Source of the DNA: Escherichia coli
Lineage (GTDB): Bacteria; Pseudomonadota; Gammaproteobacteria; Enterobacterales; Enterobacteriaceae
Length of the DNA stretch: 64,000 bases
Assembly: GCF_024502345.1 (NCBI RefSeq)
Contig: NZ_JALDNN010000001.1
Strand: one strand, 5' to 3'
How positions within the stretch are numbered: position 1 is the stretch's first letter; every line of letters begins with the position of its first letter. The notes under the pieces were generated by a model. That model was given only the letters and a program-made list of their open reading frames with translations, did no database searches and was not told the DNA's origin. This document shows, piece after piece, positions 18,571 through 18,737 of the stretch. Both the position numbers and the translations under genes were made by a program.

Positions 18571-18737
18571 CTCCAGCCAAAGGGTATCGGTAAAAGCGGG
18601 AAAATGATAAAATAACCTAATGAGGCTTCAGTATTTTTACCTGTTTTTTAAGAGCAATCACATTATTATTTTATGTCATTAATATCATCGCATTAGCCAG
18701 ATGCGATGATGTTCCATATATAGTTTTATTATCTACT

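What the first reader, a model, noticed from the sequence alone, without database searches (positions are those of the whole stretch)
18571..18737. Conserved ~167-bp inter-module spacer with an embedded hairpin
The same spacer recurs at 17176-17341, 17873-18039 and 18571-18737, each containing the inverted repeat ATCATCGCAT-tagccag-ATGCGATGAT (e.g. 18684-18710). Its position after each immunity gene and before each toxin tail suggests a terminator or RNA-processing site, or a sequence guiding recombination. It does not match REP elements I recognise.
Basis: seen in the sequence. Interest (0 to 1): 0.4.

Follow-up and report, generated by a model that had tools for sequence, protein, structure and literature searches.

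The report
Duplication scar with conserved hairpin, usp island
The repeated 167-bp "spacer" is a non-coding junction scar between leftover toxin-tail/immunity modules of the known E. coli usp (Hcp–pyocin–DNase) island. Most of it drifts neutrally, but it carries one 33-nt hairpin that is clearly conserved and whose function is not known.

Summary
Three spacer copies lie at 18571-18737, 17873-18039 (identical) and 17176-17341 (157/167 identical). Each carries the hairpin, and a fourth, diverged hairpin follows the last immunity gene (16591-16627).

The locus is the known PAIusp island between aroP and pdhR. It holds usp (Hcp + S-pyocin + colicin-type DNase), its immunity gene, and tandem "orphan" modules of a 5'-truncated DNase tail plus an immunity gene.

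The spacer is not translated, is not a REP element, matches no Rfam family, and is not a canonical intrinsic terminator because it lacks a U-tract. It is a composite scar: 24 nt, the hairpin, a decayed toxin 3' end plus immunity-gene start, then a remnant of the usp linker. This fits one ancestral tandem duplication. Intermediate forms exist in other Enterobacteriaceae.

Between genera the spacer diverges like synonymous sites. The 33-nt hairpin does not (89% versus about 63-67% identity) and keeps its pairing through double substitutions.

My best guess for its role is an intercistronic RNA stem-loop that sets segmental mRNA stability. This is inferred, not shown. Recombination uses the whole conserved block passively. 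This window carries a perfect, strain-specific 698-bp duplication whose crossover maps to the immunity gene's 3' end. Interest is modest.

The parts
19025..20806 (-). usp (uropathogenic-specific protein; annotated tssD / Hcp-ET3-4), the full-length toxin: Hcp + S-type pyocin + colicin/pyocin DNase (HNH)
   Evidence: ORF of 593 aa. Pfam PF05638, PF06958 and PF21431. RefSeq annotation of orthologous loci. Identified as UTI89_C0121 = usp.
18738..19022 (-). Immunity gene directly downstream of usp (imu/orfU type, 94 aa)
   Evidence: PF01320 at E = 7e-30.
18571..18737 (-). Spacer copy 3 (the finding): a non-coding composite junction
   Evidence: At least 2 stops in all six frames, GC 32%.
18714..18737 (-). 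24-nt segment between the immunity stop codon and the hairpin. It overlaps the -10-like GATAAT of a promoter-like match (TTTAAA-16-GATAAT at 18755..18728).
   Evidence: One search gives the consensus match, which is no better than chance overall. The 24-nt stop-to-hairpin distance is the same in E. coli spacer, stub and terminal forms and is 22 nt in Salmonella-type, Sup2 and MG92 spacers.
18681..18713 (-). 33-nt hairpin AACATCATCGCAT-CTGGCTA-ATGCGATGATATT. The core 10-bp stem is 18701-18710 / 18684-18693. This is the only constrained part of the spacer.
   Evidence: (I3), 4, 5 and 47 for the fold. for conservation and covariation.
18602..18680 (-). Ghost segment: decayed toxin 3' end (…HDEIHYRR*) followed by a decayed immunity-gene start (MFKEK..YTEDEF..)
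   Evidence: An HMM built only from genuine toxin-end/immunity-start junctions aligns collinearly with the spacers. See also the nhmmer alignments. Stub intermediates are L092 4647-4720 and the L009 junction just downstream of position 4703.
18571..18601 (-). Remnant of the usp linker (GVPLSSGTRWLD) fused to the orphan tail through a 114-nt deletion between TGGCTGGA direct repeats
   Evidence: nhmmer hits of spacer positions 147-184 onto the main genes. Repeat spacing of 114 nt in usp and in the Superficieibacter orphan.
18331..18570 (-). Orphan DNase tail 1 (79 aa; second half of the DNase domain, frameshifted near its 3' end)
   Evidence: PF21431 positions 54-112 of 124. Alignment of repeat units.
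18040..18330 (-). Orphan immunity gene (96 aa)
   Evidence: PF01320.
17873..18039 (-). Spacer copy 2, identical to copy 3. Hairpin at 17983-18015.
17633..17872 (-). Orphan DNase tail 2, an exact duplicate of tail 1
17342..17632 (-). Orphan immunity gene, a duplicate (96 aa)
17176..17341 (-). Spacer copy 1 (166 nt, 94% identical to copies 2 and 3). Hairpin at 17285-17317 with a 13-bp stem including one G.U.
16987..17175 (-). Orphan DNase tail 3 (62 aa)
   Evidence: PF21431.
16650..16886 (-). Last immunity gene, truncated at the N-terminus by a 7-nt deletion relative to strain FDAARGOS_943
   Evidence: PF01320 positions 31-82 only..
16591..16627 (-). Terminal, diverged copy of the hairpin (AAAATCATCAC…GTGATGATTTT), followed by a decayed toxin-end stub. 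It lies inside the island.
   Evidence: The island's pdhR-side boundary is at about 16375-16384.
17369..18812 (-). Perfect period-698 tandem duplication specific to this strain. The crossover interval is 18765-18812, inside the 3' end of the immunity gene.
   Evidence: Exact identity of x and x+698 over 746 nt. The closest genome has a single copy. No complete genome shares the array at 99% or above.

Best explanation
The spacer is the inter-module junction of the orphan toxin-tail/immunity array in the usp pathogenicity island (PAIusp; usp = Hcp-ET3-4).

Anatomy, read on the gene strand:
1. 24 nt after the immunity stop codon.
2. A 33-nt hairpin.
3. A decayed copy of the last ~25 nt of a toxin gene plus the first ~17 codons of an immunity gene.
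4. About 30-40 nt of the usp linker that precedes the DNase domain.

This layout is what a single ancestral tandem duplication would leave, with its left end in the usp linker and its right end in the 5' part of a second immunity gene that already carried a hairpin and toxin stub in front of it. Later unequal crossovers between the conserved blocks (immunity 3' end + spacer + tail 5' end) copied the scar into every module and still change module number.

Apart from the hairpin, the scar evolves neutrally. The hairpin is under purifying selection.

The most likely role of the hairpin is an intercistronic RNA stem-loop in the long usp-imu transcript. It would act as a barrier to 3'->5' exonucleases and as a segment-stability or processing element, so that each immunity message is buffered separately. 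It would not act as a full terminator.

Shown: the anatomy, the origin of segments 3 and 4, the neutrality of the rest, the constraint on the hairpin, and the ongoing recombination. Inferred: the single-duplication scenario and any RNA-level function.
For: Identity of the locus:
- Domain architecture, aroP-pdhR position and literature.

Composite origin:
- The spacer profile aligns collinearly to toxin-end/immunity-start sequences of several loci.
- An HMM made only from genuine junctions scores 8-13 bits on Salmonella and Superficieibacter spacers and 4 bits on E. coli sp3. No shuffle out of 400 reaches these scores, and the offsets match.
- Stub intermediates, in which the same hairpin is joined to an obvious toxin 3' end plus SD plus an intact immunity gene, occur in L092/L093 (E = 8e-14 over spacer positions 2-141) and in L009.
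- L092 has exactly the architecture predicted after one duplication: usp-imm-spacer-CT-imm-hairpin/stub-imm.
- The linker remnant hits the main gene, and the 114-nt deletion lies between TGGCTGGA repeats.

Neutrality versus constraint:
- Between-genus spacer identity is 0.62-0.80, against 0.57-0.81 at 4-fold sites of usp.
- The hairpin is 0.89 identical against 0.63-0.67 for the other three segments. Fisher p is 1e-4 to 1e-3 in 4 of 5 pairs.
- 29 of 33 hairpin columns are invariant in four lineages, against 40% elsewhere.

Pairing:
- Across 17 distinct variants, 82% of cells are paired and 6 pairs have changes on both sides. The covariation score is 0.111 against 0.073±0.012, reached by 1 of 500 shuffles. 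Slid controls give 17-54% paired.

Recombination:
- A perfect 698-bp duplication is present here.
- Spacer copy number is 1-4 per genome across 960 genomes.
- Module order differs between strains.

Not a terminator and not a known RNA.
Against: - There are no transcript data, so an RNA-level role is only an analogy.
- There is no strand asymmetry. G.U on the sense strand occurs in 9 cells, against 15 A.C cells that would be G.U on the antisense strand. A DNA-level or antisense role is therefore not excluded.
- The loop (CTGGCTAA) is as conserved as the stem. A generic exonuclease barrier would not require that, which hints at sequence-specific recognition.
- The whole spacer is not unusually structured on the gene strand (z = -0.97).
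- The origin of the 5' arm is unresolved. Derivation from the HNH codons was tested and not supported.
- Homology of the E. coli terminal region and of E. coli sp1 to the junction HMM is not detectable.
- The Fisher tests treat sites and lineage pairs as independent.
- Quasipalindrome template-switch correction could produce some of the double changes without selection on structure.
Confidence: 0.55

Rival explanations
1. Each hairpin is a Rho-independent terminator, or attenuator, that ends transcription after each immunity gene.
For: It sits 24 nt after the stop codon in E. coli spacer, stub and terminal forms, and 22 nt in Salmonella-type, Sup2 and MG92 spacers. The stem is stable: 10-16 bp, -12.6 to -27 kcal/mol. 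The terminal copy is flanked by AAAA…TTTT and lies where an operon end is expected, upstream of pdhR.
Against: No U-tract follows the array hairpins: AUUAAUGACAU in E. coli and CCCGACAAGAG in Salmonella. The terminator scan calls none of them. In stub forms the hairpin sits 5 nt before the SD of an intact immunity gene, and a strong terminator there would silence that gene. A review of the literature reports that all the downstream immunity genes contribute to protection, which implies read-through.
Confidence: 0.12
2. The spacer is a 5' regulatory region for the orphan module. An internal promoter at the end of the immunity gene or inside the spacer starts a transcript whose 5'-proximal hairpin stabilises it. 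This would give the orphan immunity genes expression independent of usp.
For: TTTAAA-16-GATAAT ends about 15 nt upstream of the hairpin in every copy. The TAATAA block is invariant in four lineages. A second semi-conserved pair, (C/T)TGAAA-N16-TATCAN, lies in the ghost segment. The hairpin always precedes a present or former immunity start with its SD. Internal immunity promoters are known in colicin operons (background knowledge).
Against: Promoter-like matches in the region are no more frequent than in shuffles: 15 found against 16.3±4.2 expected. The TAATAA block is absent from the stub and terminal forms, which still keep the hairpin (sequences). The ghost segment evolves at the synonymous rate.
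Confidence: 0.15
3. The palindrome acts at the DNA level. It would be a binding site for a dimeric protein (a regulator), or a recombination site that promotes capture or exchange of modules, like an integron attC site.
For: Both arms and the loop are conserved in sequence, not only in pairing. There is no strand bias in wobble pairs. The layout of gene followed by palindrome, repeated in an array, is superficially cassette-like. Some variants carry AAC…GTT at the stem base.
Against: No recombinase or integrase lies in the island (ORF list; the literature says PAIusp encodes only usp and imu). The attC core motifs RYYYAAC and GTTRRRY are not matched, by my own reading of the sequences: ATGGAAC / GTTAATA in E. 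coli and GTTCCCG in Salmonella. All modules share the same ~110-nt 5' region, unlike integron cassettes. The only datable crossover is ordinary homologous exchange inside the immunity gene. No match to operator consensus sequences I know (background knowledge).
Confidence: 0.08
4. The hairpin has no function. It is a by-product of the rearrangement that deleted a toxin gene (a fold-back junction), and it only looks conserved because of short evolutionary time and palindrome self-correction.
For: The 3' arm and loop are collinear with the toxin's last codons (PRLHDEI), so half of the hairpin is inherited coding sequence. The rest of the spacer is neutral. Quasipalindrome template switching can create paired double changes (background knowledge).
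Against: The hairpin is far more conserved than adjacent sequence of the same age. Self-correction keeps complementarity but does not lower the substitution rate. The hairpin is retained in every form examined, including the much diverged terminal copies.
Confidence: 0.1

Closest known systems
PAIusp: the usp–imu1-3 (orfU1-3) island of uropathogenic E. coli, also described as Hcp-ET3-4 with duplicated immunity genes
   Same: Same locus. It lies between aroP and pdhR, has the same Usp domain architecture, and has 2-4 colicin-type immunity genes downstream whose number and order define the PAIusp subtypes.
   Different: The papers available here describe only usp and the small immunity ORFs. They do not mention the truncated DNase tails, the inter-module spacer or its hairpin: searches for 'terminator', 'hairpin' and 'truncated' gave 0 hits in PMC7142922, and. 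I could not read Nakano et al. 2001 or Ma et al. 2017, so prior description there cannot be excluded.
Orphan toxin-CT/immunity arrays downstream of rhs and cdiA genes (polymorphic toxin systems)
   Same: Tandem 5'-truncated toxin C-terminal fragments each followed by an immunity gene. Each fragment keeps a stretch of homology to the full-length gene. The arrays are remodelled by homologous recombination (family properties from background knowledge).
   Different: Here all junctions share one common scar that traces to a single duplication and contains a ghost of a further toxin-end/immunity-start. The tails in E. coli are too short and are frameshifted, so they cannot restore a functional toxin simply by recombination.
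REP/BIME and other intercistronic stem-loops that stabilise upstream mRNA segments (for example malE–malF)
   Same: A stable stem-loop in an intergenic region of a polycistronic unit, without a U-tract, placed just after a coding region. This is the proposed mode of action.
   Different: There is no sequence similarity to REP. It is not dispersed in the genome and occurs only in usp-type islands. The stem is AT-rich (about 40% GC). The function is untested.
T1 terminator after the immunity gene in E-type nuclease colicin operons
   Same: A hairpin immediately downstream of a PF01320 immunity gene in a DNase toxin–immunity operon.
   Different: No U-tract. No DNA similarity to any plasmid: only one E. 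coli chromosomal-type record was hit.

Membership tests
PAIusp / Hcp-ET3-4 locus | Inserted in the aroP–pdhR intergenic region | tested here: met
   aroP at 21384-22757 (+) and pdhR at 15430-16227 (-) flank the array. Same layout in L001-L004 and L089-L095. Literature.
PAIusp / Hcp-ET3-4 locus | Toxin with Hcp + S-type pyocin + colicin/pyocin DNase domains, followed by colicin-type immunity genes | tested here: met
   PF05638, PF06958, PF21431 and PF01320.
Orphan toxin/immunity module array (polymorphic toxin systems) | 5'-truncated toxin C-terminal fragments, each followed by an immunity gene, in tandem downstream of the full-length gene | tested here: met
   Three tails covering DNase profile positions 54-112, each followed by PF01320.
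Orphan toxin/immunity module array (polymorphic toxin systems) | Orphans retain homology to the main gene upstream of the variable part, allowing recombination | tested here: met
   82-90% identity of tails to the usp 3' region. The linker remnant in the spacer matches usp.
Intrinsic (Rho-independent) terminator | G+C-rich stem-loop | tested here: inconclusive
   A stable 10-16 bp stem, but only about 40% GC in the core.
Intrinsic (Rho-independent) terminator | Run of U immediately (0-2 nt) after the stem | tested here: not met
   No site called at any spacer hairpin. The downstream sequences lack a T-run. Only the terminal copy has TTTT, and that run is part of its stem.
REP / BIME elements | Dispersed in many intergenic regions of the genome with a conserved REP consensus | tested here: not met
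   Only 3 matches in 64 kb, all in the array. Occurrences are restricted to usp-type islands.
Integron attC site | Inverse core RYYYAAC and core GTTRRRY at the ends of an imperfect palindrome, with an integron integrase nearby | tested here: not met
   Motifs are not matched, by my own reading of the sequences. No integrase lies in the island. No covariance model for attC was available.
Any curated RNA family (Rfam 15) | Covariance-model match at or near the gathering score | tested here: not met
   Only 3 chance-level hits in 16200-21400. None covers the hairpin or ghost segments, and the one that overlaps a spacer (17124-17196) scores 18.5 bits against a gathering score of 80.
Conserved RNA/DNA hairpin (structure under selection) | Pairing maintained through compensatory changes, and conservation above the neutral background | tested here: met
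   6 pairs with double changes, covariation reached by 1 of 500 shuffles. 0.89 against 0.63-0.67 identity.
Conserved RNA/DNA hairpin (structure under selection) | Strand-specific wobble pattern showing which strand (RNA) is selected | tested here: inconclusive
   G.U on the sense strand in 9 cells, against 15 A.C cells.

The most novel reading that the evidence does not exclude
The 33-nt palindrome, stem and loop, is a sequence-specific cis element recognised by a trans-acting factor on RNA or DNA. It would control expression of the orphan immunity modules, or their turnover or exchange. On that reading, usp-type islands would be a small cassette system with its own dedicated signal rather than a passive pile of duplications.
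Probability: 0.1. Interest if true: 0.55.

Novelty: new member of a known kind. Interest (0 to 1): 0.27.

Why it matters
PAIusp is a widely used marker of extraintestinal pathogenic E. coli, present in about 19% of complete genomes. Its subtypes are defined by the order of the small immunity ORFs.

This analysis adds three things:
- The ORFs are separated by truncated toxin tails and by a common duplication scar. This explains mechanistically how the subtypes arise, through unequal crossover in about 440 bp of conserved sequence.
- It gives a concrete, reconstructible example of how orphan toxin/immunity arrays are born.
- It isolates a single 33-nt element that is the only non-coding part under constraint, which makes it an obvious target for testing how the downstream immunity genes are expressed.

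It does not reveal a new kind of system.

Tried and rejected
- Rfam scan of 16200-21400 at E ≤ 1: nothing relevant.
- Terminator and promoter consensus scan: no terminator at the hairpins. Promoter-like hits are at chance frequency.
- Whole-spacer folding: not more stable than shuffles on the gene strand (z = -0.97). It is slightly more stable on the other strand (z = -2.0), driven by the hairpin.
- Homology to colicin or pyocin plasmids: none.
- Same hairpin after immunity genes of 79 other DNase-toxin loci from Pseudomonas, Photorhabdus, Vibrio, Yersinia and others: absent.
- Derivation of the 5' arm from the toxin's HNH codons (ATACATCATCGTGTT, a 12-nt identity with Superficieibacter-type arms) with an internal deletion: an HMM of that toxin region finds nothing in the pre-hairpin and 5'-arm sequences. 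The identity is explained by complementarity to the toxin's 3' end.
- Strand assignment from wobble pairs: no asymmetry.
- Pairwise Smith-Waterman of spacers against toxin/immunity junctions gave mixed results. The profile tests were needed.
- Metagenome scan for non-E. coli hairpin variants: one S. bongori-type contig only.
- Small ORFs crossing the spacer (40 aa at 18671-18793 on the minus strand; 47 aa at 17225-17368 on the plus strand) were dismissed. They are present in only some copies, and the hairpin's conservation includes third codon positions.
- Ma et al. 2017 could not be retrieved.

Full report
**1. What is there**

The window is an E. coli chromosome segment carrying lpd–aceF–aceE–pdhR and aroP. 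Between pdhR (15430-16227, minus strand) and aroP (21384-22757, plus strand), everything lies on the minus strand.

- A 593-aa gene (20806..19025) has Hcp, S-type pyocin and colicin/pyocin DNase domains.
- It is followed by a PF01320 immunity gene (19022..18738).
- Three further modules follow. Each is a ~167-nt spacer, a 62-79-aa fragment matching the second half of the DNase domain (profile positions 54-112 of 124), and another PF01320 immunity gene.

RefSeq annotates orthologous loci as tssD + 'bacteriocin immunity protein' + 'hypothetical protein', and nothing is annotated over the spacer. The toxin is Usp, the uropathogenic-specific protein (UTI89_C0121), also called Hcp-ET3-4. The island is PAIusp, known to sit in the aroP-pdhR intergenic region with two or three small immunity ORFs (imu1-3/orfU1-3) whose order defines subtypes.

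**2. The observation**

The three spacers and the palindrome are at the stated coordinates.

- Copies 18571-18737 and 17873-18039 are identical. Copy 17176-17341 is 157/167 identical and has one substitution in the second arm, which leaves a 13-bp stem with one G.U on the gene strand.
- A degenerate 33-nt pattern matches only these three sites in 64 kb and none in 100 shuffles.
- A fourth, diverged hairpin (16591-16627) follows the last immunity gene, again 24 nt after the stop codon.
- The spacer has at least 2 stop codons in each of the six frames and is 32% G+C.

The identity of copies 2 and 3 carries no information on constraint. They belong to a perfect period-698 duplication: x equals x+698 over 17369-18114. 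The closest complete genome (FDAARGOS_943) lacks it, and no complete genome shares the whole array at 99% or above.

**3. Distribution**

- The spacer occurs in 960 of 5,426 complete E. coli genomes, at 1-4 copies (median 3), always chromosomal.
- The island's pdhR-side flank shows that about 1,054 genomes carry the island, and that core K-12 sequence resumes at about 16375-16384.
- Homologous spacers occur in S. bongori and S. enterica at the same chromosomal site, in Superficieibacter at a different site, and in two metagenome contigs.
- The hairpin is absent from plasmids and from 79 other DNase-toxin loci of other genera.
- A metagenome scan for non-E. coli variants returned a single S. 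bongori-type contig.

**4. Anatomy and origin**

In Salmonella and Superficieibacter the orphan tails are 114-116 aa. Their homology to usp begins in the linker, at GTCCCGCTTTCA…CGCTGGCTGGATATG (GVPLSS..RWLDM). The E. coli tails are shorter because 114 nt between two TGGCTGGA direct repeats were deleted. The last ~30 nt of the spacer are therefore a remnant of usp coding sequence.

The segment after the hairpin's 5' arm aligns collinearly with the real toxin 3' end (…PRLHDEIHYRR*), its SD, and the first ~17 codons of an immunity gene.

- The spacer profile hits exactly that position in several loci.
- An HMM built only from genuine junctions scores 8-13 bits on the Salmonella and Superficieibacter spacers and 4 bits on E. 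coli sp3. The offsets match and 0 of 400 shuffles reach these scores. E. coli sp1 and the terminal copies are too decayed to score.

Two intermediate forms support this reading. In L092/L093 and in L009 the same hairpin is joined directly to an obvious toxin end (…GTTCACTACAGGAGAAAATT-ATG) and an intact immunity gene.

L092 has the order usp – imm – spacer – CT(116 aa) – imm – hairpin/stub – imm. That is what one tandem duplication would produce, with its left end in the usp linker and its right end near codon 17 of the second immunity gene. I infer that all spacers descend from that single junction and were spread by unequal crossover.

The origin of the hairpin's 5' arm is unresolved. A derivation from the HNH codons was tested and not supported.

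**5. Neutral scar, constrained hairpin**

- Between genera the spacer is 62-80% identical. This is indistinguishable from identity at 4-fold degenerate sites of the adjacent usp gene, at 57-81%.
- By segment, the hairpin is 89% identical, against 63-67% for the pre-hairpin, ghost and linker segments. Fisher p is 1e-4 to 1e-3 in four of five lineage pairs.
- 29 of 33 hairpin columns are invariant in four lineages, against 40% elsewhere. The loop CTGGCTAA is included in that conservation.
- Across 17 distinct variants (array, stub and terminal forms), 82% of cells pair and six pairs show changes on both sides, for example G-C->A-U, C-G->U-A via U.G, and A-U->G-C via G.U. The covariation score exceeds 499 of 500 shuffles, and slid controls drop to 17-54% paired.
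- There is no strand asymmetry in wobble pairs, so the selected strand, or DNA versus RNA, cannot be decided.

**6. What it does**

It is not a canonical intrinsic terminator. No U-tract follows, the scan makes no call there, and in stub forms it sits 5 nt before the SD of an intact gene. It is not REP, has no attC core motifs, has no recombinase nearby, and matches no Rfam family.

[quoted passage not shown] Read-through transcription of the array is therefore the simplest assumption.

On that basis I favour an intercistronic RNA stem-loop that delimits mRNA segments. It would act as a 3'->5' exonuclease barrier or processing mark next to a 68% A+T stretch. This is by analogy with REP-type stabilisers and is an inference. 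The conserved loop argues that recognition may be sequence-specific.

The rivals (attenuating terminator, internal promoter plus 5' hairpin, DNA-level binding or recombination site, no function) are listed with their tests.

**7. Recombination**

Modules share a block of about 440 nt at 90-100% identity. It spans the last ~75 nt of the immunity gene, the spacer, and the first ~200 nt of the tail. It flanks a hypervariable immunity core at 44-72% identity.

The strain-specific duplication has its crossover interval at 18765-18812, inside the immunity gene's 3' end and not in the spacer or hairpin. Module number and order differ among strains. The spacer therefore guides recombination only as part of ordinary homology.

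**8. Verdict**

The feature is real and has not been described in the papers I could read. It belongs to a known kind of locus, an orphan toxin/immunity array in the well-known PAIusp. Most of it is an evolutionary scar. The one part worth an experiment is the 33-nt hairpin.

Noticed in passing
window 17369-18812: A perfect 698-bp tandem duplication (spacer + tail + immunity gene). It is absent from the closest complete genome (FDAARGOS_943), and no array matching at 99% or above exists in 5,426 complete E. coli genomes. It is either a very recent unequal crossover or an assembly artefact.
   Followed up: partly
window 16887-16940 (start of the last immunity gene): A 7-nt deletion relative to FDAARGOS_943 and other strains frameshifts the last immunity gene. 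Only a 78-aa C-terminal ORF remains (16650-16886).
   Followed up: partly
window 18331-18400 and 17633-17702: Orphan tails 1 and 2 carry a 1-nt deletion near the 3' end. They end …NLRRAHLICMMKFITGDS* instead of …NLRIVTPRLHDEIHYRR*. Together with the missing first half of the DNase domain, this makes them non-functional toxin fragments.
   Followed up: partly
window 18571-18585, compared with 19263-19385 in usp: E. coli orphan tails arose from longer ones (114-116 aa in Salmonella and Superficieibacter) by a 114-nt deletion between two 8-bp direct repeats TGGCTGGA (RWLD / LWLE codons).
   Followed up: yes
L094 1409-4024 (E. coli CP082775): An IS66-family element (TnpA/TnpB/DDE transposase) is inserted in the usp gene of this strain. 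The downstream fragment is annotated as a 118-aa HNH protein.
   Followed up: no
L004 2739-4536 (S. bongori CP053416): usp is split into three ORFs (Hcp; Pyocin_S; Pyocin_S+DNase) in this S. bongori genome, which suggests pseudogenisation. The orphan module behind it is intact.
   Followed up: no
window 16219-16245: The palindrome AATTGGTCTTACCAATT lies just upstream of pdhR and looks like the known PdhR operator of the pdhR-aceEF-lpd promoter (from memory). It lies in core sequence downstream of the island, so transcription reading out of the island would run into this promoter.
   Followed up: no
window 15309-15356: A 22-nt inverted repeat with a 4-nt gap (82% complementary) lies in the pdhR–aceE intergenic region.
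   Followed up: no
window 12026-12589: A 255-nt direct repeat with 309-nt spacing (76% identity) lies inside aceF. It corresponds to the repeated lipoyl domains of the E2 subunit and is ordinary.
   Followed up: no
L006/L007 (Superficieibacter) 2761-6460: The same usp-type array, with spacers, sits at a different chromosomal site: between a proP-like transporter gene and an ABC/HlyD exporter, not aroP-pdhR. The module set therefore moves between sites. Its last immunity gene is not followed by the hairpin.
   Followed up: partly
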